Positions 19,622 to 58,640 of a stretch of DNA of 64,000 bases are shown piece by piece. Both the position numbers and the translations under genes were made by a program. The DNA lies in the IMG/VR virus record IMGVR_UViG_3300032218_003059, positions 1 to 64,000 of that record. One strand, written 5' to 3'. The DNA comes from a virus (lineage: Duplodnaviria; Caudoviricetes). Numbering within the stretch: position 1 is the first letter of the stretch; the number at the start of each line of letters is the position of its first letter. Below the pieces are notes generated by a model. The model searched no databases, was not told the DNA's origin, and worked only from the letters and a program-made list of their open reading frames with translations.

Positions 19622-21004
19622 ATGGCAAATAAAAAGATAGGTATTAAATCATCAGCCCAGGACAACTTCCTAGAGCCTAAAGCTGTAACAGGTTTTACAG
19701 CAACAGCAGTCAACGGTGGAGCATTTGGAAATGGGTCTGTGTCACTTTCATGGACCCTTCCATCTGATTCACCAGCCGCAACTCTTTATAGCGTTACTTC
19801 AAGTCCCGCTACAACTACACAGACAACATCAGACACAAGCCTTTCTTTTACAGGATTATCTGGAGGAACAGCTTATACATTTACAATAGTTCCTTCAAAT
19901 GCTGTTGGAAATGGTCTATCTACAACATCAGCATCAGCAACTCCAACAACAATTCCCTCAGCTCCAACAAATGTTGCAGTAACATCAACATCTGCTGGTG
20001 TAGATAACTTGACATGGACAGCATCTAATGACGGAGGATCAGGAATAACAGGATACTCTTGGGCTTCATCTGATTCAAAGGCTGGTTCTGTTGGAAACGT
20101 AACTTCCGCAAATATTAATCAAGAACAAGGAACTGCACAGACATACACAGTTTATGCAACAAATGCTAATGGTAACTCATTAACATCAGCAGCATCAAAC
20201 TCTGTTACTACTTTCTTCTCACCACCTTCCTTCTTCTCGCCTCCAGGGTTCTTCTCGCCCCCAGGGTTCTTTGCGCCTCCAGGGTTCTTCGCACCTCCAG
20301 GGTTCTTCTCGCCTCCAGGGTTCTTTGCACCTCCAGGGTTCTTCTCTCCTCCAGGGTTCTTCGCACCTCCAGGGTTCTTCGCACCTCCAGGGTTCTTCTC
20401 GCCTCCAGGGTTCTTCTCGCCTCCAGGGTTCTTCGCACCACCATCATTCTTTACTCCACCATACTTCTGCATTGCTGAAAATACACCAGTATTAACAGAC
20501 GGCGGATATAAGATGGCAAAAGATATACAGGTTGGAGATAACTTAATGACAGTTAAGTTTGACGATATGCCAGTTGGAGATCTTGAATGTATACTGGGAG
20601 AAATTACAGATAACTGTAATACAATATTCAAATCATGGTCATCAGAAACTTTGGACGGGCTAGAATACGTTTCATCTAAAGTAACAGATATATTTGAAAG
20701 CATAGATAAAGATATAGTTATATTTAATAATGATATTACTACAGCCTTATCAACAGTTGAGCTAGCATTAGTTTATACTAATGGTAAGCATTCATTAAAA
20801 GAAGCTTCTGAAATATCTGTAGGAGATTATATTGTAACTTACAATGGTCAAATTAATAATACTCTAGTAACATCTGTTGAATTAGGAGACAAAGCAAATG
20901 CCTACTTATTCTACAGAGAAGGTAATAATATGATTATTACTGGTGGACCAATGGTCGTAAATGGCTGTCCACTATCATCAATGTCCTCATTGATTTCTAA
21001 CTAA
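19622..21004 (+). CDS. FN3-domain virion protein with FFxPPx repeat and C-terminal Hint-like domain
   Basis: Two FN3-like domains (VSLSWT..YTFTIVPSNAVG; DNLTWT..YTVYATNANG), 14 hexapeptide repeats, then CIAENTPVLT...IQVGD Hint block. Confidence 0.8.
   Translation: MANKKIGIKSSAQDNFLEPKAVTGFTATAVNGGAFGNGSVSLSWTLPSDSPAATLYSVTSSPATTTQTTSDTSLSFTGLSGGTAYTFTIVPSNAVGNGLSTTSASATPTTIPSAPTNVAVTSTSAGVDNLTWTASNDGGSGITGYSWASSDSKAGSVGNVTSANINQEQGTAQTYTVYATNANGNSLTSAASNSVTTFFSPPSFFSPPGFFSPPGFFAPPGFFAPPGFFSPPGFFAPPGFFSPPGFFAPPGFFAPPGFFSPPGFFSPPGFFAPPSFFTPPYFCIAENTPVLTDGGYKMAKDIQVGDNLMTVKFDDMPVGDLECILGEITDNCNTIFKSWSSETLDGLEYVSSKVTDIFESIDKDIVIFNNDITTALSTVELALVYTNGKHSLKEASEISVGDYIVTYNGQINNTLVTSVELGDKANAYLFYREGNNMIITGGPMVVNGCPLSSMSSLISN
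20213..20464 (+). repeat. 14 x 18-bp in-frame tandem repeat encoding FF[S/A/T]PP[G/S/Y]
   Basis: Directly counted; unit TTCTTC(T/G)CNCCTCCAGGG. Confidence 0.95.
20468..20962 (+). other. Degenerate Hint (intein/Hedgehog-like) domain
   Basis: Starts with Cys; block A CIAENTPV...IQVGD, ISVGDYI; block B TVEL lacks His; ends GPMVVN instead of VHN. Confidence 0.65.
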
Positions 21005-21024
21005 TTAAATGCTATAGTGGACTT

Positions 21025-21666
21025 ATGTACACAAGCAAGCAAGAGATATTCCCTGGAATGTGGAAATATTCAAATGTTTTTACTGAAGACTTAGATCTAG
21101 TAAATAGAATTGAATATGAAACATCCCAGGGAAATGTCTTTTGGGAAAGAGCTTCAGTTGGACTTGATGCTGTAGAAAATAGCTACAGATTCTGCTCCGT
21201 TTTAAAAATGGATGAATTTGGAGAATCACACCCTTTATATAAAGATATATATCAAGTACAAAAAGAATGTGTAGATGACTATAATTATATGCATAATTTA
21301 GATATAAATTTTTGGGAATGGACTAACATAGTAAAATATGTTCCAAATGAATATTTTAATGAGCATTCGGATCATGGATGGTCTTATGTATCTACAGTAT
21401 CTCTCGTTGGATATCCAAATGATGATTATACTGGTGGCTCTTTATATTTCCCAAAATTAAATTTAAATGTTGTTCCAGAAGCTGGCGACTTATTAATATT
21501 TCCCTCAAGCTACCTATTTTCTCATGTAGCTATGCCAGTTATAACGGGAACAAAGTATTGTTTTGCAACCATGCTTGACTATAATGATGATGCTCATTCT
21601 AGAGAGTATGATGAGTATATAGTAAGAAAATATAATAATGAAAAGAGAGCCTATAATGTTACCTAA
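21025..21666 (+). CDS. 2OG-Fe(II) oxygenase (P4H-like)
   Basis: HSDHG, YPNDDYTGG, FPSSYLFSH, TKY; TGC-TATAGT ends 6 nt upstream (leaderless-type). Confidence 0.9.
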   Translation: MYTSKQEIFPGMWKYSNVFTEDLDLVNRIEYETSQGNVFWERASVGLDAVENSYRFCSVLKMDEFGESHPLYKDIYQVQKECVDDYNYMHNLDINFWEWTNIVKYVPNEYFNEHSDHGWSYVSTVSLVGYPNDDYTGGSLYFPKLNLNVVPEAGDLLIFPSSYLFSHVAMPVITGTKYCFATMLDYNDDAHSREYDEYIVRKYNNEKRAYNVT

Positions 21667-22357
21667 TGCAGAGTTTATATACCCAGGAATTTTAGTATAC
21701 AGAGACGTTTATACAAAGGACATGGACCTTGTTAATAGACTTGAAGAGTCTTTATCAAGCGATCCAAATGCTGAGGGTATAGGGTACTCTGATGCACCAC
21801 ATGCAAAATATAAATGGAAGCAGGCTACAACTGGATATAGCAATAATGATTTAAAATACAGAGATTGCTATGATTTTAAAATTAAAAAGAACATATTTGA
21901 TGACACTGGTAAAAGCAAAGAGCAACTTAAGCTAGAAAAAATATGGGAAGATGCAAAGCAGGCACAGGTAGGTCCAGTTCAAGACTACTCTCAGATGTTT
22001 AACCTTGCCCCACTAACATATTGGGAATCTTTTAACTTTGTTAAATATGGTAAAGATCAGCACTTTCAAGTACATTCCGATCATGGCTATTCTTATATTT
22101 CAGTATTATCTTCAGTAGGATATCCTAATGACGACTATGAAGGCGGAGAATTATTTTTTGATAAGATAGGCGTAACAATAAAACCAAAAGCAGGCGATTT
22201 ATATCTGTTTCCATCTTCTTATATATATTCTCATGCAGCACTTCCAGTAAAAAGCGGAGTAAAATATTCAATAGTAACGATGCTTGATTATCATGAAGCT
22301 CCACATACACCTGACTATCGTGAGATAGAAGAAAGGTATAAGTTAATTCGTGATTAA
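21638..22357 (+). CDS. 2OG-Fe(II) oxygenase (P4H-like)
   Basis: HSDHG, YPNDDYEGGEL, FPSSYIYSH, VKY. Confidence 0.9.
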   Translation: MKREPIMLPNAEFIYPGILVYRDVYTKDMDLVNRLEESLSSDPNAEGIGYSDAPHAKYKWKQATTGYSNNDLKYRDCYDFKIKKNIFDDTGKSKEQLKLEKIWEDAKQAQVGPVQDYSQMFNLAPLTYWESFNFVKYGKDQHFQVHSDHGYSYISVLSSVGYPNDDYEGGELFFDKIGVTIKPKAGDLYLFPSSYIYSHAALPVKSGVKYSIVTMLDYHEAPHTPDYREIEERYKLIRD

Positions 22358-23069
22358 TTTTGAAGTATATAAAGATGACGGACCAGTTGCTAACATAGAG
22401 CCCCTTTCAGCAAAAAGAGATTGGATGGAGGCTACATTTGATAAGCATGCATATAGATGCTTACCCGTAACTTTAACCAATCAGTTAGGCTGGGCCATAT
22501 CTTTTCCAGAAGATATAACATTTATGTGGGACGGACAAATATCTACTTCTGGAGAGCATATTAAAGTTTTAGCTGGAGAAAAGTATATTCAAACAGGAAG
22601 AGGGCAAGCTACCGTAAGCTTTGAAACAGGTCTAGTTTTTAGAACACCAGAAAACTATAGCCTTTTAACATACAATGTTCCAAACATGTTTATGGAAGGA
22701 GTTTCTCCATATACTACAATAATAAGCTCATCCTTTTTTGAAGGACCACTTCCAGTTGCTTGGAAAATCACAAAAGCATTTGTACCAATAACAATAAAAG
22801 CTAATCAGCCAGTAGCTGCTGTATTTCCAATATCTCTTGCTAATATTCAAGGATCTACGTTAATAATAAAAAATATAAAAGATTTGATTAGGGTTAAAAG
22901 AGATATTCCTTTAGATTTAGATGAAGCAGTAAAGTCAGCTGCAGATGCCGCCGCTAATGGCGGGTGGACAGATTATTACAGAAATGCAATAGACTATATG
23001 GGAAACAAACTTGGAAGACATGAAGCTAAGTCTTTAAAATTATTAGTTAAAGATGAGTCAAATGAATAA
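22350..23069 (+). CDS. DUF6065-like protein
   Basis: RDWM...AYRCLPVTLTNQLGW..P...WDG signature recalled for DUF6065; GTG start. Confidence 0.65.
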   Translation: MINFEVYKDDGPVANIEPLSAKRDWMEATFDKHAYRCLPVTLTNQLGWAISFPEDITFMWDGQISTSGEHIKVLAGEKYIQTGRGQATVSFETGLVFRTPENYSLLTYNVPNMFMEGVSPYTTIISSSFFEGPLPVAWKITKAFVPITIKANQPVAAVFPISLANIQGSTLIIKNIKDLIRVKRDIPLDLDEAVKSAADAAANGGWTDYYRNAIDYMGNKLGRHEAKSLKLLVKDESNE

Positions 23070-23775
23070 GATTAGTTTTTGGTCAAATAGGCCAGCGAAT
23101 AACGATACCACAATCCCCGTAACTGCTAAAAAAGTTATGCCTCAGTGGTTTTTAGATGCTAAAAAATATTGGAAAAATGAAGAAGGAAAAGAATACATAA
23201 TTGCAGAAGGAGAAAAAGGTCTTGGGTTCAAGGCTTGTCCAGCTCTTTTAGATTTATTTAATTGTGGATACATGTTAGTTACTCCATGTGATGTTGTAGT
23301 TTATATGCAAGAAGGAAAAAAATTAATTGTTTCTTCACCAGAATTTCCAGATTTTTGTGAGGCTAGACCTTATATGAATGAATTTAGTTATCCTTATGGA
23401 TACGCAACAGATTCATTTCATTGGTTTCCAAGCTGGGGATTTGATTTGCCAAAAGGGTATAGCGCACTTGTTGTTCACCCTTTAAATAGATACGATTTAC
23501 CATTTTTAACAACAAACGGTATAATTGATAGTGATAAGTATGGTTCACCAGGATTGATGCCATTTTTTATTAGAGAAGATTTTACAGGGGTGATCCCAAA
23601 AGGAACACCGTTTGCACAAATAATTCCTTTTAAAAGAGAAGACTGGAAAGCCGAATATGATTTTATTGAATTAAACGATATGATTAAAAAGCACGAAGAG
23701 ACTGTAAATAAATATAGAGTCCCCTTTGGTGGGATTTATAAAAGATATACTTGGGTTCAAAAGAAGTACGAATAG
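23053..23775 (+). CDS. Conserved phage hypothetical protein, DUF6065-related
   Basis: KACPA...GYML.TPCD, PKGYS..HPLNR.DLPF, GTPFAQIIPFKREDW. Confidence 0.6.
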   Translation: MSQMNKISFWSNRPANNDTTIPVTAKKVMPQWFLDAKKYWKNEEGKEYIIAEGEKGLGFKACPALLDLFNCGYMLVTPCDVVVYMQEGKKLIVSSPEFPDFCEARPYMNEFSYPYGYATDSFHWFPSWGFDLPKGYSALVVHPLNRYDLPFLTTNGIIDSDKYGSPGLMPFFIREDFTGVIPKGTPFAQIIPFKREDWKAEYDFIELNDMIKKHEETVNKYRVPFGGIYKRYTWVQKKYE

Positions 23776-23784
23776 GGGATAAAA

Positions 23785-24477
23785 ATGGATAGAGAATTAA
23801 CTTACAAAGAAGACATTAGAACATCTAGAGAATCAATAACTCCTTCAGGTTATTTTGGCGGATGCAAAGAAAATATTGTAGAAATAGAAAACTTTTTAAC
23901 CGAAGAAGAGTGTGACTTCCTTATACTTTTTGCCAAGGGGAACACAGTTTGGGATGTAACTAAATCGGCAGTTAATGAAAATGGCAATGTTATTTATGAT
24001 GCAGATGTGTGGAAAGATCGTGTTGCAACAAGAAAGTCTTTAGACGAGTCAAATCCTTTAGTTTCTCCAATGCTAGAAAAAATAATTGAAAGATTAAAGC
24101 CAGTAATAGAAAAACATTTTAATGTTGAAGTAAATCCAACTGGTCCATGTATAGTTCGATGGCCAGAAGGAAGTATGCAATGGCCACATGCAGATAAAGA
24201 GCTTCATGAGGGACCAGATGCTGGAACTCCAAATAACTTTCCGTGGTATGACCTAGGAACGGTATTTTATTTAAACGATGATTACGAAGGCGGAAGATTG
24301 CATTTTCCAAGACAAGAAATTGCTTTTAAACCAAAAAAGAGAGCCGTATATTTTTTCCCAGGAGATTTAAATTACATCCATGGAGTAGACGTCATAACAA
24401 GTGGCGTCAGATACACCTCACCTTGGTTCTGGACAATAACAAAGCTAAATGAAAAGGAAGTTACTGTAAATGAATAA
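23785..24477 (+). CDS. 2OG-Fe(II) oxygenase (P4H-like)
   Basis: HAD, YLNDDYEGG, IHGV, VRY. Confidence 0.9.
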   Translation: MDRELTYKEDIRTSRESITPSGYFGGCKENIVEIENFLTEEECDFLILFAKGNTVWDVTKSAVNENGNVIYDADVWKDRVATRKSLDESNPLVSPMLEKIIERLKPVIEKHFNVEVNPTGPCIVRWPEGSMQWPHADKELHEGPDAGTPNNFPWYDLGTVFYLNDDYEGGRLHFPRQEIAFKPKKRAVYFFPGDLNYIHGVDVITSGVRYTSPWFWTITKLNEKEVTVNE

Positions 24478-25258
24478 AATAGAATTACACCCTAAAGTAA
24501 TGGTCTATAGAGACTTAATAAAAAATGTGCCAAAAGTTTTTAAAGCTATAACTGATTCACATGATAATTCAGGAGAAAATTATTTTAATCCATGGACAGA
24601 CTGGAGTAAGTTTGGCATTTATGCAAGTGTCAAGGGGGACCACGAGATAGTTGGTAGACTAGGATCAGATCCAGTATTTGATAATGAATATGAAATTGTT
24701 CAAGAAGTAGAAAATGCTTACAAAGTAGCAATTGATGATTATGTAAAAACTTATGACATTCAATTACCAGAAAATAGCAGATTAAATTCTTCTTCATTTT
24801 GCAGATACCACGAGGGCGTAGATGTGCTTGAGAATGATTTAACTATGCAATATCATACTGACTACAAGCAGTCAGAAAAAGAAATGCCAGGCAATCACTT
24901 CTTTATTACATGCACTACTTACATAAACGATAATTACACTGGCGGAGAAATAGAGTTTTATATTGATGGAAAGTTTATAACACATAAGCCAGTTGCTGGA
25001 GATATTATGGTATTCCCATCAGTAGAGCCTTACTACCATGGAGTAAAAACAATTACTTCTGGATATAAGTATTTAATTAGAAATTTTATAACATATAGAT
25101 ATCCAGGATCTAAAGAGTGGCTAGAAAACCAAATAGAATTTGGGGCTGTTCGCTGGGCAAAGATGGAAGCAGAAAGAATTGAAAAAGCTAGATTTAATGG
25201 AAACATTATTATAAAAAATGGTCAGGTTGTATCTGGGCCAGGTATGGAGTCAATGTAA
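24470..25258 (+). CDS. 2OG-Fe(II) oxygenase (P4H-like)
   Basis: HTD, YINDNYTGGEI, YHGV, KYLIR. Confidence 0.9.
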   Translation: MNKIELHPKVMVYRDLIKNVPKVFKAITDSHDNSGENYFNPWTDWSKFGIYASVKGDHEIVGRLGSDPVFDNEYEIVQEVENAYKVAIDDYVKTYDIQLPENSRLNSSSFCRYHEGVDVLENDLTMQYHTDYKQSEKEMPGNHFFITCTTYINDNYTGGEIEFYIDGKFITHKPVAGDIMVFPSVEPYYHGVKTITSGYKYLIRNFITYRYPGSKEWLENQIEFGAVRWAKMEAERIEKARFNGNIIIKNGQVVSGPGMESM

Positions 25259-25260
25259 TT

Positions 25261-25971
25261 ATGGACATAGTTAAACTAAAAGAAGATGCATTTATTGTAA
25301 ATAACTTTTTAACTTCAGAAGAGTGCGAGTCTGTTATAAAGTACTTTGATGCCATAACTGCAGCTGGTGTTTTAGATTGGAATCAGATATCTTTCTTTGG
25401 TTCTTTTGCAATGGGATATTGGCCAACAGATGAAAACCTTCTTCAGTTTAATTTACCAGCAAATTATTTTAATTTAGTTAAGAAAAAAATTCAAGATGCT
25501 GGAGAGATGTTGTTTGAAAGAGAGTTTAACGAGGTTAGCTTTCACGCACAGAAATGGGTAGACGGAGCATTTGCAGCTTTTCACTCAGATAATTCTGACG
25601 AACACGGAAATCCAAATGCTTTTCATAAAAGTAAATATGCTGCGTTTATATATTTAAACGACAACTTTGATGGAGGTCTTCTTAACTTCAAGCATGATGA
25701 TGTTACTGTAAAGCCCGCTATTGGCATGCTAGCCTTTTTTAAAGGTGGATATATGAACGAGCATGAAGTAACCACAGTAAAGGGCGGAGATAGATATACA
25801 ATAGGATCTTTTTGGGATAATGCAGATGAAGTATATGATGAAGAAACTATTAAAAAATGGGAAGATGAATTAAAGCAAACAAGAGCTCTTCAAGAAGAGC
25901 AATATAAAGAATGGGACGAGAACGTAAAACAAGGTCAAATTCCTCAATATAAGGGGAAGTATGATTATTAA
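25261..25971 (+). CDS. 2OG-Fe(II) oxygenase (P4H-like)
   Basis: HSD, YLNDNFDGG, EHEV, DRY. Confidence 0.9.
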   Translation: MDIVKLKEDAFIVNNFLTSEECESVIKYFDAITAAGVLDWNQISFFGSFAMGYWPTDENLLQFNLPANYFNLVKKKIQDAGEMLFEREFNEVSFHAQKWVDGAFAAFHSDNSDEHGNPNAFHKSKYAAFIYLNDNFDGGLLNFKHDDVTVKPAIGMLAFFKGGYMNEHEVTTVKGGDRYTIGSFWDNADEVYDEETIKKWEDELKQTRALQEEQYKEWDENVKQGQIPQYKGKYDY

Positions 25972-26548
25972 TAAGTTACATGATAATATCTATTACTATG
26001 AAAGAGCAATCAATAATCCTAAAGAGCTTTTAAAGCATCTAGATAAAAATGTTTGGGAGAGGTGGATGTCTTCCGATGGTGGAGAATTTTATGGCCACTC
26101 CCAAGGAGCTATGTTTGGAAGCGAAGAAATAGGATCCACAATAAATGAAAAAAATGGAATGATATTAAAGGAGATTTTTAACTCCGCTATTTTTGCTGCA
26201 AACAATTATTCAGATGCAACAGGAATTGATATTGGTTATCTTCCACCATTCTTTGCATTTAAAAAATATAATACTGGTATTGGAATGGGCCCACATGTTG
26301 ATAAATATAGTGGAAAAGATAAAAAGTCTACGCTATCAATGGTCATATATTTAAATGACGATTCCGAAGGCGGAGAGATAGAGTTTGCTAATCAAGGAAT
26401 ATTATTAAAGCCAAAGGCTGGCAGCATAATTGTATTCCCTCCTGGGAAACCCTACATGCATGAGTCTAAAAAAGTAACAGAGGGAAATAAATATATGATC
26501 CCGCTATTCTTTTTTAAAGATAAAAAGCCAAGAGCCAGCAAAAAATGA
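25961..26548 (+). CDS. 2OG-Fe(II) oxygenase (P4H-like)
   Basis: HVD, YLNDDSEGGEI, MHES, NKY. Confidence 0.88.
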   Translation: MIINKLHDNIYYYERAINNPKELLKHLDKNVWERWMSSDGGEFYGHSQGAMFGSEEIGSTINEKNGMILKEIFNSAIFAANNYSDATGIDIGYLPPFFAFKKYNTGIGMGPHVDKYSGKDKKSTLSMVIYLNDDSEGGEIEFANQGILLKPKAGSIIVFPPGKPYMHESKKVTEGNKYMIPLFFFKDKKPRASKK

Positions 26549-28188: not shown

Positions 28189-28243
28189 TTTGTCACATAG
28201 ATGGACAATCTATGGACTTATACAGCAAAGAATGGTAAAATAA

Positions 28244-49799: not shown

Positions 49800-50713
49800 T
49801 GATTAAAGGTACATATATTTTATATCAAGACGGAAAAGAAATAATGCGTCAAGATAACGTCATAACTAAATTTGGTAAGAGATTTATTACAGAGTTTATT
49901 GCTGGAAACATCCCTAATGCTAAAAAAGATATAGCTATTGGAATAACTTCTGCAGCTGCAACATATGACGATACTAGGCTTGGATTTGAATTTTATAGAT
50001 TCCCAGTAAGTTTTGGAAGCACAAATATTCAAACAGTTAGCGGAACTACAACTTATGGCGTTATATATAAGGGAACAATTCCACAGGACGTAGCTGGAAC
50101 AGTAACAGAGCTTGGTCTGTATCCATCAACAAGATCTTCTTCTAATAATTATGATAGCAAGTTTATTTCAGACTTCGCATCACCATTGCTTTGGCTTGAT
50201 GCAGACGGATACAACCCTCCAGTTGATTACAGTAATGCAAAAATTGGAGACAATGTTTTAAAAATTCAATCGGGTAAAGAATATTTTTATTCCCCTGGAA
50301 ATTTTGACATGTCTGGGTATAGTTCTAATGATAGCTTAAAGATTGCTTATCATAAGTACGGAACTAATTTAAGCGGAGTAAAGGTAAATTTCTATACTTC
50401 AAACTCAGACTATTACTCATATACATTTTCATCTGGATCAGTAGGATATAATATAAGCTCAGATGTGCTCCTATCTTCATTGTATGCAGCACCAGTTGGA
50501 TCACCAAATAAAGCTCAAATAAATAAAATTGGAGTAACTGCAATATCTAATAATGCATCATTAGCATACGCAGGCCTTGATGGACTAAGAATAAATGATG
50601 AAGATACGTTTGATCCAACAATGGGATTAATAAGTCGTGCAGTTATAACAGAATTTACTAAACAAGTTGGTCAACCAATAGACATTGAATATAGATTAAA
50701 TTTAGGTTTCTAA
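49799..50713 (+). CDS. Minor tail protein
   Basis: NVITKFGKRFI, LGFEFYRFPV, ELGLYP, IEYRL motifs. Confidence 0.6.
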   Translation: MIKGTYILYQDGKEIMRQDNVITKFGKRFITEFIAGNIPNAKKDIAIGITSAAATYDDTRLGFEFYRFPVSFGSTNIQTVSGTTTYGVIYKGTIPQDVAGTVTELGLYPSTRSSSNNYDSKFISDFASPLLWLDADGYNPPVDYSNAKIGDNVLKIQSGKEYFYSPGNFDMSGYSSNDSLKIAYHKYGTNLSGVKVNFYTSNSDYYSYTFSSGSVGYNISSDVLLSSLYAAPVGSPNKAQINKIGVTAISNNASLAYAGLDGLRINDEDTFDPTMGLISRAVITEFTKQVGQPIDIEYRLNLGF

Positions 50714-50714
50714 T

Positions 50715-52835: not shown

Positions 52836-52838
52836 TAA

Positions 52839-55800
52839 ATGGCCAACAATTCAAGCATATACAATGGATCATCCTGGGTTAAATTAAAAGCAATAAAAAT
52901 TTATAATGGCGGATGGCAGACAGTTAAAAAAGGTTTTATTTATACTGGAACAGCATGGGCTAGATTTTGGCCATCAGCTGGACCATATACAACAACATCT
53001 CCAAGTATACGAATAGACTCATATACTGGAAAATCTGTTGGCTCTGTAATTCAAATGGGCCCAAGACTAAGCAGCATAGAAGACAATACTCCGCCACTTA
53101 CAATTCCAGATGGATTATCTGGTGCTACATATTTGTGGGGGCAAGATGGTGTTTGGGCAAATAATACTAATGCTGTAATTAATAGATATTTTTATTACAA
53201 TTCATCAAATGATTTTACTAATGCATCTGCAATAAATGGTGTAACTGATAAGCTATCAAATACTAGCGGAACAATAGATTCATATGACGCAAAATATTTA
53301 TGGTATTACGTTACACAAACTACAGATGCAATGGGAGAGGACCAAAGCGAGTCATTGTATTTAATTAAACAAAGGCCAGCACCACCAATATCTTTTTTAA
53401 TAGATACCTCTACAGATCCAACAGTTGGCAAACCAGTAACAGTTAACTATTCTTTAAACACGGATTGGTATAGAAATGCAAAACTTAGTTTAAGCTATAT
53501 AGAATGGTTTGCAGAAACTACATTAAATCCAACATACTCATCTCCAGCCCAAACAGATTATTTGTCTGCAAATAGCGGTTCAAAAACATTTACTCCAACA
53601 GAAGCAGAAAAAGATAAGTATATATTTGCAAGAATAACAATAGCAAATTCATACTCAGATTATTATGGAAGTTCTTATGTAAGAACAGCGGAAGACTATA
53701 ATATTAAAAAGGTTGGCGCAGCGCAGCTCGCACCTAACTCAGGAACTGTATCAGTATCTCCATCAACTGGAACCGCTGGAACTACAACATATATTCCTAT
53801 ACCAGCAGGATGGAAGGGTCCTCCTGATATATTTACCTACACCTATTCATGGAGAATATTAAAGCCAAACTTACAATATCAAGAAGTAGGAACAGGATCG
53901 ACATTTGCTCCAGCGTTAAACTTCAATACTGCGTATCCAAACTTTGAAACTCGCTTATTTTGGACAGTATCAAATGGAATAGCTCCAGATGCAACTGGTA
54001 GTACAGGATTTACTGTAAATAATGCATTAATTACAAGAACACTTTCGTTTAGCGCTAATGGAGGCACAGGTGCTCCTGCAGCACAAACTGGTACAGACAA
54101 TGGATCTGGAGCAACCATTACAATAACAAACTCAATTCCAACACGAGACGGGTACAGATTTTTATATTGGAATACTTCTCCATCAGACATGGGAGGAACA
54201 ACATATGCACCTGGAAATAGTATTACTCTTAATACAGATGTAACTCTTTACGCAATGTGGAGTCTAATTTTAGTTGCTCCATACGGCGGAAGCACATCAG
54301 TTGATCCAACTTCTGGAGTATCTGGAACTCTATTTAGAGCAAGTACAAGCGGCTGGTCTGGCACTCCAAATTCATTTACCTATTCTTTTTCCTGGCAAGG
54401 CCTGTCAACATCAAACTACAATTATGTAGAACTAGGAACAGGATCTACATTTTATTCTTTTGGAATAAATCTAAACACCTACCTTGCATTTAGAGTTGTT
54501 GCAACTGCAACAAATGCCGCTGGATCTAGCTCAGCTCCTGCAGATTTTTCAATAACAATTCCATCATATACTAGAACACTTTCCTTTAGCGCAAACGGTG
54601 GAGTAAGCGCACCAGCAGCACAAACTGGCACAGACAATGGATCTGGAGCAACCATTACAATTACTACATCCACTCCAACTCGGTCTGGGTACAGATTTTT
54701 ATATTGGAATACTTCTCCATCAGACATGGGAGGAACAACATATAGTCCTGGAAATAATATTACTATAAGTTCAGATGTGACTCTATATGCAATATGGAGC
54801 CTGGTCCTTGTTCCGCCAAGTGGTGGGAGCACATCAGTTTCTCCAACTTCTGGAACCGTTGGTACAACATATACAGTAAGCACCTCTGGTTGGAGTGGAA
54901 CGCCAAATTCATTTACTTATGCATATTCCTGGCAAGGTTTATCGACTACGGGATACAATTATGTACAACTAGGAACAGGATCTACATTTAATTCTTCTGG
55001 AATAAACGTGGCAAACTACCTTGATTTCAGGGTTGTAGCAACAATTACAAATGCTGCTGGTTCTGTTCAAGATACAGCATACTTCTCAGTAACAGCTGCT
55101 ATAAATACAATTGCAACAATTGCTACACAGAATACAATTGCAACAATTGCTACACAGAATACAATTGCAACTCAGAATACAATTGCTACACAGAATACAA
55201 TTGCAACTCAAAATACAATTGCTACACAGAATACAATTGCTACACAGAATACAATTGCTACAATTGCTACACAGAATACAATTGCTACAATTGCTACACA
55301 GAACACAATTGCTACAATTGCTACACAGAACACAATTGCTACAATTGCTACAATTGCTACACAGAATACAATTGCAACTCAAAATACAATTGCTACACAG
55401 AATACAATTGCTACAATTGCTACACAGAATACAATTGCTACAATTGCAACTCAGAATACAATTGCTACAGGTGGAGGAGGTTGCTTTGTTTACGGCACTG
55501 AAATTCAAATGGCAGACGGAAGCTGGAAGAATATGGAAGACCTATATATTGGAGATCAAGTTATGGGTATAGATATTCCTACAGTCCCTTATGAGGATAG
55601 TATGGGATTTGACTATATTCCAACATGGACATCTACAGATGTTTCTGGTACAATAAAATCTGTAGCTACTGTTATAAATGTAGATAACAGATCATTTGAT
55701 AGCTATTATTTAATTAATAATCAAGTAAAGGTTACATATGAGCATAACGTATTGGTTCAACAAGATGGAATATGGAAATTTATCATGGTTGAAGATATTA

Positions 55801-55970
55801 ATGTTGGAGACAATATAATGAACGAAAACCTTGAAATAGTTCCAGTTTTATCAAAAGAATTAATAAATGAAACAGTAAATACTACATCAATAAATATTGA
55901 CGATATTGATGTTTATACCGTAAGGGGCATGGTTGCCCACAATATAACAAGTAAGGCGGGGGCCAATTGA
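52839..55970 (+). CDS. Fibre/adhesin-like virion protein: Ig-like and InlB B-repeat-like domains, (X-X-Thr)41 repeat, C-terminal Hint domain
   Basis: Two RTLSFSANGG...PTR.GYRFLYWNT...TLYA.W (Listeria-Bacteroides repeat-like) modules; IAT/QNT repeat; GGGG-CFVYGT...TYEH...VAHN. Confidence 0.85.
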   Translation: MANNSSIYNGSSWVKLKAIKIYNGGWQTVKKGFIYTGTAWARFWPSAGPYTTTSPSIRIDSYTGKSVGSVIQMGPRLSSIEDNTPPLTIPDGLSGATYLWGQDGVWANNTNAVINRYFYYNSSNDFTNASAINGVTDKLSNTSGTIDSYDAKYLWYYVTQTTDAMGEDQSESLYLIKQRPAPPISFLIDTSTDPTVGKPVTVNYSLNTDWYRNAKLSLSYIEWFAETTLNPTYSSPAQTDYLSANSGSKTFTPTEAEKDKYIFARITIANSYSDYYGSSYVRTAEDYNIKKVGAAQLAPNSGTVSVSPSTGTAGTTTYIPIPAGWKGPPDIFTYTYSWRILKPNLQYQEVGTGSTFAPALNFNTAYPNFETRLFWTVSNGIAPDATGSTGFTVNNALITRTLSFSANGGTGAPAAQTGTDNGSGATITITNSIPTRDGYRFLYWNTSPSDMGGTTYAPGNSITLNTDVTLYAMWSLILVAPYGGSTSVDPTSGVSGTLFRASTSGWSGTPNSFTYSFSWQGLSTSNYNYVELGTGSTFYSFGINLNTYLAFRVVATATNAAGSSSAPADFSITIPSYTRTLSFSANGGVSAPAAQTGTDNGSGATITITTSTPTRSGYRFLYWNTSPSDMGGTTYSPGNNITISSDVTLYAIWSLVLVPPSGGSTSVSPTSGTVGTTYTVSTSGWSGTPNSFTYAYSWQGLSTTGYNYVQLGTGSTFNSSGINVANYLDFRVVATITNAAGSVQDTAYFSVTAAINTIATIATQNTIATIATQNTIATQNTIATQNTIATQNTIATQNTIATQNTIATIATQNTIATIATQNTIATIATQNTIATIATIATQNTIATQNTIATQNTIATIATQNTIATIATQNTIATGGGGCFVYGTEIQMADGSWKNMEDLYIGDQVMGIDIPTVPYEDSMGFDYIPTWTSTDVSGTIKSVATVINVDNRSFDSYYLINNQVKVTYEHNVLVQQDGIWKFIMVEDINVGDNIMNENLEIVPVLSKELINETVNTTSINIDDIDVYTVRGMVAHNITSKAGAN
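54036..55100 (+). repeat. Tandem duplication, period 537 bp (179 aa)
   Basis: AGAACACTTTC..TTTAGCGC.AA at 54036 and 54573, with long near-identical stretches. Confidence 0.85.
55101..55469 (+). repeat. 41 in-frame 9-bp units encoding X-X-Thr (25 IAT, 15 QNT, 1 INT)
   Basis: Directly counted; 369 bp. Confidence 0.95.
55482..55943 (+). other. Hint (intein/Hedgehog-like) domain, 154 aa
   Basis: Cys1 CFVYGTEIQMADG, block B TYEH, INVGD, terminal VAHN; +1 residue is Ile followed by a short tail. Confidence 0.88.
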
Positions 55971-56566
55971 ATTCGCCCAGTAATATGATAAAACAAGTAC
56001 TTAGCGATAAATTAGTAATATATCAAAATGCTATACCAAACCCAAAAGAACTTATAAAAGAGTTTGAAAACACTTTAACAGAATTTAATCAGTCATGGAA
56101 AAAATCAGTTATAAATGATTTTGAGTATAATAGCGATCTAAGATCGTGCACAATATTCTCACTTTTTGTTAATGACTCTGATGATGCAGAATGGGCTAAA
56201 GCAAAAGTAAGCTTAAATCAAAAAATTAATAAATTTGTTTCCGAAGCATTTTTAGACTATTGCAAAACTTATGAGTACAAGGTAAAAAATAAAGAGCCTT
56301 GGGAAATATGTAGATATGAAGAAACTCAAAAACTAGTTTGGCATACAGACGATGGGCCAACACACCCATGCGATGTATCTTTTGTAATTTATTTTAATGA
56401 TGATTACGAGGGCGGAGAAATTCAATTTAAAGAGCATTTAGATGGTTATCCTTATAAGCCACCAGCTGGCAGCATAATAATATTTCCATCAAAATCAACA
56501 CACATTCATAGGGTGATACCAATTACAAAAGGAATAAAGTATGCTGCAATTAGCTTCGCCAAATAA
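55967..56566 (+). CDS. 2OG-Fe(II) oxygenase (P4H-like)
   Basis: HTDDG, YFNDDYEGGEI, IHRV, IKY; true start may be ATG 55985. Confidence 0.9.
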   Translation: MNSPSNMIKQVLSDKLVIYQNAIPNPKELIKEFENTLTEFNQSWKKSVINDFEYNSDLRSCTIFSLFVNDSDDAEWAKAKVSLNQKINKFVSEAFLDYCKTYEYKVKNKEPWEICRYEETQKLVWHTDDGPTHPCDVSFVIYFNDDYEGGEIQFKEHLDGYPYKPPAGSIIIFPSKSTHIHRVIPITKGIKYAAISFAK

Positions 56567-57143
56567 AATATACGAAGGAATTTTGGTTTACAATAATTCT
56601 AACGGAGCTGATATTCTTTTACAAAGCATTGAAGATCTTTTAACAAACTCTACTGATGCAAGATGGAGTCCTTCTAGAATTATAAAGTCTAAAGAAGAAG
56701 GTTATGTCGTAGATAAATCTATAAGAGATAATTTATATTTTTGGCTAAACTACAGTTTAGATTATGAAAAAGAAACAAAGTCAAAAATGATGAAGATTAG
56801 CTCTATGATAGACACTGCAATTATTCCATCATTAAATGACTATCAAAATAAATACAGTGTTCAAATTAAAACCAGAGATCCATATGAGCTTTTAAAGTAC
56901 TATGAAAACAATCATCTATCCTCTCATACAGATGATGGCGGAGCCAACCACTCTAGAGTATCTTTGTTATTTTATATAAACGATGATTACGAGGGCGGAG
57001 ACATAGTGTTTGATTATTTAAATATATCATATTCTCCTAATATAGGAGACATAATAATATTCCCTTCTTCGTACATATATAGACATCACGTAAATAAGGT
57101 TACGAAAGGTATCCGTTACTGCATTGCGGATTTTATGGCATAA
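56541..57143 (+). CDS. 2OG-Fe(II) oxygenase (P4H-like)
   Basis: HTDDG, YINDDYEGGDI, FPSSYIYRH, IRY. Confidence 0.9.
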   Translation: MLQLASPNKIYEGILVYNNSNGADILLQSIEDLLTNSTDARWSPSRIIKSKEEGYVVDKSIRDNLYFWLNYSLDYEKETKSKMMKISSMIDTAIIPSLNDYQNKYSVQIKTRDPYELLKYYENNHLSSHTDDGGANHSRVSLLFYINDDYEGGDIVFDYLNISYSPNIGDIIIFPSSYIYRHHVNKVTKGIRYCIADFMA

Positions 57144-57682
57144 TGAAAAGTAGAAAGATTTTCCCAGGCGTATTTGCCTATTCTGATTTTTTTGATGATC
57201 CTATGGAAATTTTTAGCAATGTGGAAGACATGGGTGGGTGGCACCCAGCAGAAGCTGGTGCATATGGCGAAGGCCCTTCTATAGTCGAGGAGAGAAGACG
57301 TGGGCTAATGTATAATCTACAAAGAGATCCCAATGTAAAAAAAATAACTGCAATGTCATTAGAGGCAATTAAACATTATAAATCTTTTTATGGATTAAAT
57401 TTAAAAAATCTAGAGGGCTGGTGCCTACTAAAGTATAGAGAAGGTGATTTTTTTTCTGCACATACAGATGACTCTCACGACTTCCCTAGACAAATATCTA
57501 TGGTTTACTACGCAAATGATGACTACGAAGGAGGTGAACTAGAGTTTATATTTTTTAATAATTTAAAGATTAAGCCAAACGCTGGCGAGCTAGTTATATT
57601 TCCATCTAACTACTTATTTGTTCATAAGGTAAATCCAATAACCAAGGGTGAAAAATATGCTGCAACATCGTTTGCCTATTGA
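57143..57682 (+). CDS. 2OG-Fe(II) oxygenase (P4H-like)
   Basis: HTDDS, YANDDYEGGEL, FPSNYLFVH, EKY. Confidence 0.9.
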   Translation: MKSRKIFPGVFAYSDFFDDPMEIFSNVEDMGGWHPAEAGAYGEGPSIVEERRRGLMYNLQRDPNVKKITAMSLEAIKHYKSFYGLNLKNLEGWCLLKYREGDFFSAHTDDSHDFPRQISMVYYANDDYEGGELEFIFFNNLKIKPNAGELVIFPSNYLFVHKVNPITKGEKYAATSFAY

Positions 57683-58640
57683 TAAAAAAATATTTATCTC
57701 AATACCTTCATATGAAGATGAGCTATTGTTAGAAACAATTAATGACGCATTATTAAAGGCAAAGAATGCTTCAAGGCTTACATTTGGCGTTGCCCTGCAA
57801 TATAAAAAAATTGATAAACCAGACCTATCTTTTTTAGGAAATCAATTAAAATTAATAGAATATGATGTTGACAGCAGGCCAGGGATAATCGAGATAAGAA
57901 AAAATATAGCGGATTTAATTGAAGACGAGGAGTACTTTCTTGGCATAGATGCTCACACCCTTTTTGCCCAAAACTGGGATCAACAATATATAGATGATCA
58001 CCAGATGCTAATTGAAAAAAATGGTAATAGTAAAGTTTGCATTGCATCTAGAATTAATGGATCTGAGTCTGATTTTAAAAAAGATTTATATTCAGAATAT
58101 TTAGATACTAGATGGATTTTAGATATAAACAAAAATAACGTATATGAAACTTGGTGGGACTGGCCAGTAGATGTCAAAAATAGGCTTTATGATACTCCAG
58201 AGTATGTAAAAAGATACTTTGTTTCTGCAAACAACTGGTTTACAACTTCAGAGTTTTTTATAAACAACCTGTTTTGGTGTTTCAATAAAACGGTATATGA
58301 AGAACCACAGATATCCCTATCATTATTTTTAAATAACTACGATGTATACCTGCCAACAAGCAAGGTGCTTGTCATAGCTAATCCAAAATCACAGACAACA
58401 AATAGGGAAAATAAAATTCATTGGCAAAACCCTAGTCATAAAAATTGGAATCACGACAGCATAGAGGTAGTCAGAGAAGTATTTAAGTTATTCTATACTG
58501 GCAAAAGCAATATATTTAGTCTGAATAGGCCAGATGATATATATAAATGGTGGAATGCAATCGGCTTATACGAAAAAGCCAAAGAGGTATCCGATAGGCT
58601 TAAAACTCTGCATTTAGATAGGACATACTACTTAGACTAG
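57648..58640 (+). CDS. GT-A glycosyltransferase resembling Skp1-hydroxyproline / polypeptide GlcNAc transferases (GT60-like)
   Basis: IFISIPSYED...LTFGVALQ and YFLGIDAHTLFAQNWD (DxH) match recalled Gnt1-family motifs; start may be TTG 57672. Confidence 0.72.
   Translation: MKNMLQHRLPIDKKIFISIPSYEDELLLETINDALLKAKNASRLTFGVALQYKKIDKPDLSFLGNQLKLIEYDVDSRPGIIEIRKNIADLIEDEEYFLGIDAHTLFAQNWDQQYIDDHQMLIEKNGNSKVCIASRINGSESDFKKDLYSEYLDTRWILDINKNNVYETWWDWPVDVKNRLYDTPEYVKRYFVSANNWFTTSEFFINNLFWCFNKTVYEEPQISLSLFLNNYDVYLPTSKVLVIANPKSQTTNRENKIHWQNPSHKNWNHDSIEVVREVFKLFYTGKSNIFSLNRPDDIYKWWNAIGLYEKAKEVSDRLKTLHLDRTYYLD

What the first reader, a model, noticed from the sequence alone, without database searches (positions are those of the whole stretch)
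19622..58640. Candidate new system, present twice: repeat + Hint fibre protein followed by a dedicated hydroxylase (and glycosyltransferase) cassette
Seen: two otherwise dissimilar virion genes (19622..21004 and 52839..55970) share one layout, namely Ig/FN3-type domains, then a low-complexity tandem peptide, then a Cys-initiated Hint domain at the C-terminus. Each is followed directly by a coupled run of 2OG-Fe(II) oxygenases. The oxygenases directly downstream in both loci look like one subfamily (H-[ST]-D-x-[GS]; four of five have FPS-x-Y-x-[FY]-x-H), unlike most in the 260-5433 cluster. Known: Hint domains form an N-terminal thioester and self-cleave, and in Hedgehog they attach a small molecule; P4H-type enzymes hydroxylate repeat peptides. 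Inference: Hint processing exposes the repeat at the fibre tip and the cassette hydroxylates or glycosylates it. The result would be a swappable post-translationally modified virion appendage or a RiPP-like repeat-core peptide.
Basis: partly seen in the sequence, partly recalled or inferred. Interest (0 to 1): 0.92.

Follow-up and report, generated by a model that had tools for sequence, protein, structure and literature searches.

The report
Phage fibres with repeat, Hint cap, hydroxylases
An uncultured tailed phage encodes two virion appendage proteins that each end in a short peptide repeat and a self-cleaving Hint domain and are each followed by collagen-type protein hydroxylases (one also by a protein sugar-transferase), so the phage probably tailors its own fibres chemically, which would give the many 'orphan' phage oxygenases a testable substrate; no chemistry has been shown.

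Summary
Gene A (19622-21004) has FN3 domains, 14 FFxPPG hexapeptides (11 Pro-Pro-Gly) and a Cys-initiated C-terminal domain. Gene B (52839-55970) has Flg_new domains, (X-X-Thr)41, GGGG and a Cys-initiated domain with TYEH and a terminal HN. Both end domains are Hint: the gene A model (pLDDT 90) matches inteins, Hedgehog and BIL domains, and a gene A family profile finds gene B's domain. The downstream genes are P4H-type 2OG oxygenases; locus B adds a GT60/PF11397 transferase.

The layout recurs in 27 of 27 related contigs. The 1.84-billion-representative search gave 34 matches; the 18 real ones inspected have repeat + Hint.

Two corrections:
- **The Hint is optional.** One related lineage has gene A ending at the repeat, no Hint found on its contigs, and the cassette intact. 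This supports Hint as a removable cap.
- **Enzymes track the repeat, not the Hint.** A second fibre has its own oxygenases only where its repeat differs from gene A's.

Best reading (confidence 0.55): self-processing virion appendages whose repeats are hydroxylated or glycosylated by the adjacent enzymes. No modification has been shown. Locus B's repeat has no proline, so its chemistry is open.

This scan has noted the same family in at least seven other genomes (unchecked AI notes).

The parts
19622..21004 (+). Gene A: FN3 domains + (FFxPPG)14 repeat + C-terminal Hint domain (460 aa)
   Evidence: Homologues are in the same place in 27 viral contigs. It follows an Mtd_N/tail-fibre-like gene at 16502-19600.
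20213..20467 (+). Gene A repeat, aa 198-282: 14 hexapeptides, 11 of them ending in Pro-Pro-Gly
   Evidence: Of the 12 PPG motifs in the window's proteins, 11 lie here.
20468..21001 (+). Gene A Hint domain: Cys1, block B S-x-x-E, end V-N plus a 13-aa tail
   Evidence: AF2 model pLDDT 90; Foldseek matches inteins, Hedgehog and BIL; residue table.
21025..21666 (+). Oxygenase A1 (P4H-type; HSDHG, FPSSYLFSH)
   Evidence: PF13640; alignment; tree.
21638..22357 (+). Oxygenase A2 (P4H-type), the best-conserved enzyme of the cassette (about 76-78% identity in relatives)
22350..23069 (+). DUF6065 protein, function unknown, family mostly viral
   Evidence: PF19541, E 1.8e-33; atlas clusters mostly viral.
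23053..23775 (+). DUF6065-like protein (phrog_7084)
   Evidence: hhalign to the DUF6065 family: probability 84%, E 7e-6; phrog_7084.
23785..24477 (+). Oxygenase A5; its PF13640 score is below Pfam's cut-off
24470..25258 (+). Oxygenase A6
   Evidence: PF13640.
25261..25971 (+). Oxygenase A7
   Evidence: PF13640.
25961..26548 (+). Oxygenase A8
   Evidence: PF13640.
52839..55970 (+). Gene B: tail-module fibre-like protein with Flg_new x2 + (X-X-Thr)41 + GGGG + Hint (1043 aa)
   Evidence: It lies in the slot between the tail protein 49799-50713 and 59956-60756 that holds other fibres in relatives.
55101..55481 (+). Gene B repeat, aa 755-877 (25 IAT, 15 QNT, 1 INT), plus GGGG
55482..55967 (+). Gene B Hint domain: Cys1, TYEH, terminal H-N, +1 Ile, 8-aa tail
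   Evidence: About 30% identical to the C-terminus of virion proteins of Erwinia/Dickeya jumbo phages.
55967..56566 (+). Oxygenase B1 (P4H-type); its orthologue follows the gene B relative in L044
56541..57143 (+). Oxygenase B2 (P4H-type)
57143..57682 (+). Oxygenase B3 (P4H-type)
   Evidence: PF13640, E 3.3e-16. AF2 model pLDDT 88. Foldseek matches the algal P4H with its (Ser-Pro)5 peptide, PBCV-1 vCPH, PHD2, PPHD and the Dictyostelium PHD.
57648..58640 (+). GT60-type glycosyltransferase (PF11397 GlcNAc), D-A-H motif

Best explanation
These are two self-processing virion appendage proteins, each with enzymes next to it that post-translationally tailor its repeat.

Shown: each precursor has folded N-terminal domains, a low-complexity tandem peptide and a C-terminal Hint/BIL-type domain.

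Inferred steps:
1. The adjacent Fe(II)/2-oxoglutarate protein hydroxylases of the collagen-P4H/PHD class hydroxylate the repeat. For gene A the target is the 11 Pro-Pro-Gly sites. For gene B the target residue is unknown, because that repeat has no Pro.
2. The GT60 enzyme adds a HexNAc to the periodic Thr of gene B, or to a hydroxylated residue.
3. Cys1 of the Hint domain forms a thioester at the repeat/Hint junction and the Hint domain is discarded. The modified repeat is left as the free C-terminal end of the mature appendage.
4. That end serves adhesion to the host envelope or stability.

The Hint is a removable cap and not the core of the system. Related phages encode the same protein ending directly at the repeat and keep the enzymes.
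For: - **Hint fold and conserved nucleophile.** Model and fold search. Cys1 is invariant in 37 of 37 diverse family members at about 26% mean column identity, block B Ser/Thr is invariant, and the terminal HN is present in 23 of 37. Gene B has the full set: C1, TYEH, HN.
- **The end state exists in nature.** Hint-less homologues of gene A (L076, L077) and of the slot-B fibre (L065-L072) stop at the end of the repeat. No Hint was found on those contigs.
- **Enzyme class.** A profile of the Hint-adjacent oxygenases hits Bacillus anthracis P4H (2.5e-11), P3H1, PBCV-1 vCPH, the lysyl hydroxylase LH3 and PHD2. The B3 model matches peptide-bound P4H and PHD structures. The H-x-D...H triad is invariant, and the consensus shows G-x-K-Y where these enzymes carry a 2OG-binding Lys.
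- **Substrate fit.** Of the 12 PPG motifs in the window, 11 are in gene A's repeat, and the window has no collagen-like GXY run.
- **Association.** The cassette follows gene A in 27 of 27 related contigs and in the Hint-less lineage. L044, L040, L043 and the P0022 contig also have oxygenases after a repeat+Hint gene.
- **Block presence and absence in one syntenic slot.** S74-type fibre with no enzymes; fibre ending in a PFFPP repeat with no enzymes; (IxT)n+Hint with 1 oxygenase; the window with 3 oxygenases + GT60.
- **Covariation.** A second fibre that shares gene A's repeat type has no oxygenases of its own (L006-L008, L002, G006). The one with a different repeat does (window, L044).
- **Other protein- or glycan-tailoring enzymes in relatives' cassettes.** GT60 (7e-41), Sulfotransfer_2, Asp/Asn beta-hydroxylase, APS kinase.
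Against: - No chemical evidence of any modification or cleavage.
- All loci come from one related group of uncultured phages, so conserved synteny is partly shared ancestry. The locus B pattern rests on two related instances.
- The window's own gene A Hint lacks the block B His (S-x-x-E) and the penultimate His (V-N), so its cleavage competence is uncertain. The block B His is present in only 5 of 37 family members.
- Gene B's repeat has no Pro or Lys, the usual targets of this enzyme class.
- Three to four PASTA-type repeat+Hint genes lack an adjacent oxygenase.
- The genome also has oxygenases away from any Hint gene: 260-5433 in the window, one hit at G000 72514-72762 beyond the window, and four solitary hits in the complete relative G002.
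- Neither gene A nor gene B has a PHROG family or proteomic evidence of being in the virion.
Confidence: 0.55

Rival explanations
1. The adjacency comes from a genomic hot spot and is not functional. The oxygenases and transferases are accessory genes that act on something else: host proteins such as translation factors, other virion proteins such as the collagen-like proteins of relatives, or host envelope polymers. They merely accumulate next to hypervariable fibre genes.
For: - Oxygenases also occur away from Hint or repeat genes.
- PHROGs files them with 'moron/auxiliary metabolic gene' families shared with other phages.
- Relatives encode collagen-like proteins elsewhere.
- PASTA-type Hint genes often lack adjacent oxygenases.
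- Pseudomonas PPHD, one of the structural matches, acts on EF-Tu.
Against: - In every gene A homologue inspected the cassette begins within four genes downstream (directly at +1 in most), over identities down to about 36-40% and irrespective of the Hint.
- The second fibre gains enzymes only when its repeat type differs.
- Translationally coupled packing.
- The only PPG-rich sequence in the window is the adjacent repeat.
Confidence: 0.22
2. The Hint domain does more than fall off. Its thioester transfers the repeat-bearing N-terminal part onto another molecule: an amine or hydroxyl of another virion protein, or a small molecule. This would be as in Hedgehog cholesterol transfer or the BIL2/BUBL isopeptide conjugation. 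Alternatively, it acts as a self-removing docking element for the tailoring enzymes, like a RiPP leader.
For: - Hint chemistry allows it. BIL2 conjugates its upstream domain to Lys residues (PMC8616854). Hog domains carrying Thr-rich N-termini exist in eukaryotes (PMC2362128).
- Cys1 is invariant although the block B His is usually replaced by Gln or Glu. This could mean altered thioester chemistry.
- The repeat always abuts the Hint.
Against: - Hint-less variants that end at the repeat keep the cassette. So neither transfer nor docking by the Hint can be essential.
- There is no sterol/adduct-recognition region after the Hint; only 0-18 residues follow.
Confidence: 0.13
3. RiPP-like precursor. 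The repeats are core peptides that are tailored and released as small diffusible peptides. The FN3 and Hint parts serve only as carrier and processing device.
For: Multi-copy core peptides with batteries of oxidative enzymes are known from fungal RiPPs (my own knowledge, not checked here). Repeat number varies between relatives.
Against: - No protease gene or cleavage motif between repeats was seen in the sequences inspected; this was not searched for systematically.
- The N-terminal parts are typical virion-appendage domains located in fibre and tail modules.
- In relatives the same repeat types terminate large fibre proteins.
Confidence: 0.04

Closest known systems
Bacterial intein-like (BIL) domains and Hedgehog/Hog autoprocessing domains (e.g. 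C. thermocellum BIL, PDB 2lwy; Drosophila Hh-C, 1at0; choanoflagellate Hoglet with its Thr-rich region)
   Same: - Hint fold.
- Cys1 nucleophile.
- Gene B also has TxxH and a terminal HN without a +1 nucleophile, as in A-type BILs (the BIL typing is from my own knowledge).
- Position at the end of a variable extracellular-type protein.
- Hoglet and XC Thog likewise combine a long Thr-rich tract with a Hog domain (PMC2362128).
   Different: - Found here in phage appendage proteins, always directly after a short tandem repeat.
- No adduct-recognition region.
- The block B His is mostly replaced by Gln or Glu in the gene A family.
- Pfam's Hint models do not detect gene A's domain.
- I found no paper in the library describing a C-terminal Hint on phage fibre proteins. 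The papers found concern terminase inteins.
Chlorovirus PBCV-1 prolyl 4-hydroxylase (vCPH, PDB 5c5t), which acts on viral Pro-rich repeats, and Bacillus anthracis P4H (3itq/5iax)
   Same: Virus- or bacterium-encoded small collagen-type P4H. They are among the best sequence-profile and fold matches. A Pro-rich tandem repeat encoded by the same genome is the presumed substrate; for PBCV-1 this is from my own knowledge.
   Different: - Here there are 3-8 paralogues in a cassette physically coupled to the repeat gene, within a bacteriophage structural module.
- One of the two repeats has no proline.
- No activity has been measured.
Skp1 hydroxyproline glycosylation (PhyA prolyl hydroxylase then Gnt1, GT60/PF11397) of Dictyostelium and Toxoplasma; GT60 mucin O-GlcNAc transferases of trypanosomes
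   Same: P4H/PHD-type oxygenases are directly followed by a PF11397 transferase. The Dictyostelium PHD (6t8m) is among the fold matches. Thr-rich repeats are GT60 targets in trypanosome mucins (my own knowledge).
   Different: - A bacteriophage, with no Skp1.
- The likely acceptor is a 41-fold X-X-Thr repeat on a fibre.
- Only part of the PF11397 profile is matched (positions 94-268 of 352).
- The sugar and the acceptor are unknown.
Self-cleaving C-terminal intramolecular chaperone domains (peptidase S74 type) of phage tail fibres and spikes
   Same: A C-terminal module that is presumably removed after assembly. In relatives, the fibre in gene B's slot ends in a sequence resembling such a domain. 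I judged this by eye; it was not tested with a profile.
   Different: Unrelated fold and chemistry: a Ser-Lys dyad there, a Cys thioester here.
Phage- and giant-virus-encoded virion tailoring: mycobacteriophage capsid/tail glycosylation; mimivirus collagen lysyl hydroxylase/glycosyltransferase L230 (6ax6)
   Same: Virus-encoded enzymes modify the virus's own structural proteins. L230 is among the profile hits.
   Different: Different enzymes and substrates. The combination of repeat, Hint and a hydroxylase battery is not part of those systems. The mycobacteriophage case is from my own knowledge and was not read here.

Membership tests
Hint superfamily (inteins / BIL / Hedgehog autoprocessing domains) | Hint fold | tested here: met
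   Gene A domain: AF2 pLDDT 90; Foldseek probability 1.00 to inteins, Hh-C and BIL. Gene B domain: matched by the gene A family HMM at 50 bits. Gene B's domain was not modelled separately.
Hint superfamily (inteins / BIL / Hedgehog autoprocessing domains) | N-terminal Cys/Ser nucleophile at position 1 | tested here: met
   Cys in both window genes and in 37 of 37 aligned family members.
Hint superfamily (inteins / BIL / Hedgehog autoprocessing domains) | Block B T-x-x-H | tested here: inconclusive
   Gene B has TYEH (met). Gene A has S-x-x-E (His not met). Across the family, Ser/Thr is invariant but His is present in only 5 of 37 members and is otherwise Gln or Glu.
Hint superfamily (inteins / BIL / Hedgehog autoprocessing domains) | Pfam gathering score for a Hint model | tested here: not met
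   Gene A: no hit. Gene B: Hom_end_hint 25.8 bits against a cut-off of 32.1, and Hint 19.5 against 29.7.
Splicing intein | C-terminal H-N followed by a Cys/Ser/Thr +1 nucleophile and a C-extein to ligate | tested here: not met
   Gene B: HN then Ile, with only 8 residues following. Gene A: VN then Gly. In most relatives the +1 residue is K, L, A, Y, R, I or V. These are cleaving domains, not splicing ones.
Hedgehog-type Hog domain | Sterol/adduct recognition region after the Hint module | tested here: not met
   The proteins end 0-18 residues after the Hint module.
Collagen-type prolyl 4-hydroxylase / PHD class of 2OG oxygenases (PF13640) | Pfam gathering score, the H-x-D...H iron triad and a basic 2OG-binding residue | tested here: met
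   PF13640 is above the cut-off for A1, A2, A6-A8 and B1-B3. A5 is below it at 23.7 against 27. The invariant H, D and H, and G-x-K-Y in the consensus, appear in alignments A2 and A3.
Collagen-type prolyl 4-hydroxylase / PHD class of 2OG oxygenases (PF13640) | Closest solved relatives are peptidyl-Pro/Lys hydroxylases | tested here: met
   Profile against the PDB: BaP4H 2.5e-11, P3H1, vCPH, LH3, PHD2. Foldseek of the B3 model: Cr-P4H with its peptide, vCPH, PHD2, PPHD with EF-Tu, and the Dictyostelium PHD.
Collagen-type prolyl 4-hydroxylase / PHD class of 2OG oxygenases (PF13640) | Hydroxylation of peptidyl proline | not testable with these tools
GT60 / PF11397 'GlcNAc' (Skp1 Hyp GlcNAc-transferase family) | Pfam gathering score; GT-A metal-binding motif of the D-x-H type | tested here: met
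   50.3 bits against a cut-off of 21, covering profile positions 94-268 of 352. 'GIDAH' is present; that D-x-H is the family's metal-binding motif is from my own knowledge. The relative's enzyme, L008:4426-5610, scores 141 bits.
GT60 / PF11397 'GlcNAc' (Skp1 Hyp GlcNAc-transferase family) | Transfer of GlcNAc to Hyp or Thr of a protein | not testable with these tools
   No solved relative was found by sequence. Needs biochemistry.
Collagen-like triple helix | Uninterrupted Gly-X-Y | tested here: not met
   No run of 5 or more GXY in any window protein. The gene A unit reads G-F-F-[SAG]-P-P, so a small residue falls at every third position, but Gly only at every sixth. Relatives' repeats (YFPFFPP, FGFSPFxV) have no such periodicity.

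The most novel reading that the evidence does not exclude
The Hint domain is an active part of a protein-tailoring logic new to viruses. In one version it is a self-removing C-terminal 'follower' that presents the adjacent repeat to the hydroxylase/transferase battery, using RiPP-leader logic on a virion protein. In the other its thioester hands the finished, modified repeat-bearing appendage to a nucleophile on the virion or on another molecule, a BUBL- or Hedgehog-like covalent attachment. In that case the replacement of the block B His by Gln or Glu would reflect tuned thioester chemistry rather than decay.
Probability: 0.13. Interest if true: 0.9.

Novelty: new variant of a known kind. Interest (0 to 1): 0.72.

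Why it matters
Aquatic phages carry large numbers of 2OG-Fe(II) oxygenase genes. Their role has been discussed only in terms of nitrogen/2OG metabolism or DNA repair (PMC3037559), with no substrate known. This locus offers a concrete and cheap test: a defined repeat peptide next to defined enzymes.

If confirmed, it would show several things:
- Bacteriophages build hydroxylated, and here probably O-glycosylated, appendages with enzymes of the kind eukaryotes use for collagen, extensins, mucins and Skp1.
- Hint domains serve as disposable caps on phage fibres. A related domain also ends a collagen-like virion protein of cultured Erwinia/Dickeya jumbo phages, where it could be tested directly.
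- Repeat and enzymes are exchanged together as a module.

The proline-free X-X-Thr repeat with its own three oxygenases would point to a substrate specificity not known for this enzyme class.

Tried and rejected
- **DNA and protein searches of the cultured-phage collection.** No DNA match for either locus. No protein match for gene A. Gene B matched only through its Hint domain and Flg_new part.
- **Word-based homologue search for gene A's Hint.** Nothing. The exhaustive search then gave only 34 representatives. One of them, P0026, is a low-complexity artefact, and P0028 is a multi-intein-like protein.
- **The search for related loci with gene B.** Nothing.
- **Sequence search of the PDB.** Uninformative for gene A's Hint, the GT60, DUF6065 and the DUF6065-like protein.
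- **hhalign of the DUF6065 families against the oxygenases.** No relation, so these two genes are not counted as oxygenases.
- **Third Hint gene upstream of the 260-5433 oxygenase cluster.** Relatives place a PASTA-repeat-Hint gene near SLT_3. The contig starts at window position 1, bases 1-259 encode nothing recognisable, and the whole record has only two Hint domains. This stays open.
- **Collagen triple-helix reading of the repeat.** Rejected (repeat types).
- **Literature searches** for C-terminal Hint on phage fibres and for hydroxyproline in phage virions found nothing relevant in the held library.
- **Host.** Not determined. The portal is about 57% identical to large Streptomyces siphophages and relatives carry PASTA domains. 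Together with about 35% G+C, this suggests a low-GC aquatic actinobacterial host, but it is only an inference.

Full report
**What the window is.** The window is the first 64 kb of an 86-kb IMG/VR viral contig, estimated 80% complete, with about 35% G+C. It is a siphophage-like genome. It has a portal, protease and major head protein at 28.6-32.6 kb, a 2522-aa tape measure, and tail genes up to about 52.8 kb. The portal is about 57% identical to those of large Streptomyces phages. No cultured phage matches at the DNA level.

**The observation.**
- Gene A (19622-21004, 460 aa) has FN3. It then has 14 hexapeptides FFxPP[GS], 11 of them ending in Pro-Pro-Gly, encoded by an 18-bp tandem repeat. 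Cys283 starts a 178-aa domain.
- Gene B (52839-55970, 1043 aa) has two Flg_new domains. It then has 41 triplets that all end in Thr (25 IAT, 15 QNT, 1 INT), followed by GGGG. Cys882 starts a 162-aa domain with TYEH and a terminal H-N followed by Ile and seven more residues.
- Both are followed by overlapping or nearly abutting genes. Locus A has six PF13640-type oxygenases, one of them below Pfam's cut-off, a DUF6065 gene and a DUF6065-like gene. Locus B has three PF13640 oxygenases and a PF11397 'GlcNAc' (GT60) transferase.

**Are the end domains Hint domains?** Yes.
- Pfam does not see gene A's domain and sees gene B's only below threshold.
- The exhaustive search of 1.84 billion cluster representatives (each standing for a 50%-identity cluster of about 15 billion proteins) gave 34 relatives of gene A's domain.
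- With these and the related loci, AlphaFold gave a confident model (pLDDT 90). Its best structural matches are inteins, the Hedgehog autoprocessing domain and BIL domains.
- An HMM of the gene A family, without gene B, picks out gene B's domain as the only other hit in the window (50 bits). The whole record has just these two.
- In 37 diverse members, Cys1 and the block B Ser/Thr never vary. The block B His is kept in only 5 (otherwise Gln or Glu), and the terminal H-N in 23.
- Gene B has the canonical set. The window's gene A has Cys1, S-x-x-E and V-N.
- No member has a convincing +1 nucleophile plus C-extein, so these are cleaving domains and not splicing ones.

**A family of repeat + Hint proteins.** The 18 real matches that I inspected have a variable N-terminus, then a short tandem repeat, then the Hint.
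- The N-terminus carries FN3, PASTA, Gly-rich or Cys-rich modules.
- The repeat is usually aromatic and Pro-rich: GFFxPP, [YF]FP[YF]FPP, FGFSPFxV, YSFTPFAFTP, PPIISIIAA or poly-Pro.
- I collected 44 distinct such genes in the fetched loci.
- A related Hint also ends a collagen-like 'virion structural protein' of cultured Erwinia/Dickeya jumbo phages. No oxygenases are annotated in the stretch fetched there.

**The neighbourhood.**
- All 27 viral contigs with a gene A homologue keep the order Mtd_N fibre, gene A, cassette, Laminin_G protein.
- The one relative of gene B (P0037/L044, repeat IDT/INT/IAT + GGGG + Hint) is followed by an orthologue of oxygenase B1.
- L040, L043 and the P0022 contig also show oxygenases, with or without DUF6065, after a repeat+Hint gene.
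- Three to four PASTA-type members do not. Two of them have only a DUF6065-like gene nearby.
- A Hint gene is followed by a tailoring enzyme at 24 of 45 distinct junctions, against 25 of 545 for other genes. These loci are related and therefore not independent.

**Natural variants that decide between readings.**

(a) *The Hint is optional.* In the G006/G007/G009 lineage the gene A homologue is FN3 x2 plus a long PFFPPFFPP tract and stops at the end of the tract (…FRGY). No Hint domain was found on these contigs (52-83% complete). The oxygenase/DUF6065 cassette still follows directly. The mature form that Hint removal would produce is thus encoded directly elsewhere. This is the best available support for 'Hint is cut off and the repeat becomes the C-terminal end'. 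It also shows that the enzymes go with the repeat protein and not with the Hint.

(b) *The syntenic slot of gene B.* The slot lies between homologues of 49799-50713 and 59956-60756 and exists in four states:

| State | Fibre in the slot | Adjacent enzymes | Where |
|---|---|---|---|
| 1 | Fibre with a C-terminal chaperone-like end | none | G001-G005 |
| 2 | Cys-rich fibre ending in a PFFPP repeat, no Hint | none | L065-L072 |
| 3 | (IxT)n + GGGG + Hint | one oxygenase | L044 |
| 4 | (X-X-Thr)41 + GGGG + Hint | three oxygenases + GT60 | the window |

(c) *Repeat type covaries with cassette content.* Where a second fibre carries the same repeat type as gene A of that phage, it has no oxygenases of its own. 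This holds for L006-L008 and L002 (GFFxPP with the same …IPWFGPP|C junction) and for G006 (PFFPP with the same …RGY end). At most it has a GT60 next to its Pro-Thr linkers. Only the fibres with a different, proline-free repeat have their own oxygenases. It rests on few independent events.

**What the enzymes are.**
- A profile of the Hint-adjacent oxygenases finds Bacillus anthracis P4H (2.5e-11), prolyl 3-hydroxylase 1, PBCV-1 vCPH, the lysyl hydroxylases LH3 and L230, and PHD2.
- The B3 model (pLDDT 88) matches the algal P4H with its (Ser-Pro)5 peptide, vCPH, PHD2, PPHD with EF-Tu and the Dictyostelium PHD.
- The H-x-D...H triad is invariant, and the consensus shows G-x-K-Y.
- In a tree, A1/A2-type enzymes form one clade. 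B1-B3, together with L040_d1, L043_d2 and L044_d1, form another. Both lie, with several smaller clades, in one unresolved part of the tree. A starred clade (97) apart from them holds the 260-4339 cluster oxygenases except C2, plus A5 and A7. By BLAST, the best non-self partners of A1 and A2 are B3, B2 and B1.
- Relatives' cassettes add Sulfotransfer_2, an Asp/Asn beta-hydroxylase and an APS kinase. This fits a protein- or glycan-tailoring toolbox better than nitrogen metabolism or DNA repair, the roles proposed for cyanophage oxygenases (PMC3037559).
- Of the 12 PPG motifs in the window's proteins, 11 lie in gene A's repeat, and there is no collagen-like protein in the window.

**Mechanism proposed.**
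- Shown: the architecture, the fold, the enzyme class, the association and the natural Hint-less end state.
- Inferred: hydroxylation of the PPG sites of gene A; hydroxylation of an unknown residue and O-HexNAc addition on the X-X-Thr tract of gene B; N-terminal cleavage by the Hint; and a role of the modified tract at the distal end of the appendage.
- Weak points: there is no chemistry. The window's gene A Hint lacks two helper histidines. Gene B's repeat has no Pro or Lys. All evidence comes from one related group of uncultured phages. Neither protein has proteomic proof of being in the virion.

**Comparison with what is known.**
- The end domains work like BIL/Hog domains and belong to the Hint superfamily by fold. 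They are not splicing inteins and not Hog domains.
- Thr-rich tract plus Hog occurs in the choanoflagellate Hoglet and in a nematode protein (PMC2362128).
- BIL2 of Tetrahymena shows that such a domain can also conjugate its upstream part to a lysine (PMC8616854). I keep this as the novel case, although the Hint-less variants argue against an essential transfer role.
- The enzyme side resembles PBCV-1 P4H with viral Pro-rich repeats and the PhyA-Gnt1 pathway.
- The combination of repeat, optional Hint and an adjacent hydroxylase/GT battery inside a bacteriophage structural module was not found in the papers searched.

**Relation to earlier notes of this scan.** The same family has been noted in at least seven other genomes, with similar conclusions. 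These are unchecked AI notes and I did not use them as evidence. One of them states that the enzymes appear only where the repeat is proline-rich. Locus B here and L044 contradict that as a general rule.

**Verdict.** I rate it a new variant of known kinds of system, with interest 0.72.

Noticed in passing
window 260-5433: A third oxygenase cluster. It has five PF13640 genes on the + strand and a weak oxygenase-like gene on the - strand (4600-5433) that also has a sub-threshold CDGSH iron-binding zinc-finger hit. The contig begins just upstream. In relatives a PASTA-repeat-Hint gene lies near the SLT_3 lysozyme gene, so a third substrate gene may be cut off.
   Followed up: partly
window 6358-7978: An SLT_3 lysozyme-like gene on the - strand lies next to a GT4-family glycosyltransferase (6989-7978).
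   Followed up: no
G000 82798-83538 (outside the window): A second PF11397/GT60-type transferase gene (69 bits) in the same phage. There is also a further PF13640 hit at 72514-72762.
   Followed up: no
L008:1786-5610 (also L006, L007): Relatives carry a second Hint protein of 873-919 aa with an N-terminus like gene B's, long Pro-Thr linkers, duplicated Cys-containing modules and the same GFFxPP repeat and junction as their gene A. It is followed directly by a strong GT60 (PF11397, 7e-41) fused to a weak DUF6171 region.
   Followed up: partly
L009:11330-12037, L062:8978-9556, and the contig of P0022: Relatives' cassettes contain a Sulfotransfer_2-family gene directly after gene A, an Asp/Asn beta-hydroxylase (PF05118) and, on the P0022 contig, an APS kinase. 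This hints at sulfation as a further modification.
   Followed up: partly
L045:5017-6459 (Erwinia phage pEa_SNUABM_35 gp105; 53 cultured jumbo-phage records): An annotated 'virion structural protein' has collagen-like G-X-Y repeats and a C-terminal Hint domain (THEH, VHN followed by Thr and nine more residues). This looks like an undescribed self-processing fibre in cultured phages.
   Followed up: partly
L033:13706-16489, L035:4364-7216, L036:14182-16830: In relatives the slot of gene B holds an 880-950-aa fibre. Its C-terminus resembles the self-cleaving intramolecular chaperone of phage fibres (…SSR.FKENI…GLIAEDL…). I judged this by eye and did not test it with a profile.
   Followed up: no
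L076:8199-9245 and L065:7001-10717: Within one phage (G006), two different appendage proteins end in the same PFFPPFFPP repeat type and the same terminal …F(R)GY. This suggests a shared function or a shared modifying enzyme set.
   Followed up: partly
window 37373-44941: The tape measure protein is very long (2522 aa). Other first-reader notes of this scan propose an ADP-ribosyltransferase-like segment at about 41471-42045. I did not check this.
   Followed up: no
window 8069-10938: A ribonucleotide reductase gene (phrog_367, 1e-185) sits between the oxygenase/lysozyme region and the fibre genes. The corresponding gene in L046 carries the B12-dependent RNR insertion domain.
   Followed up: no
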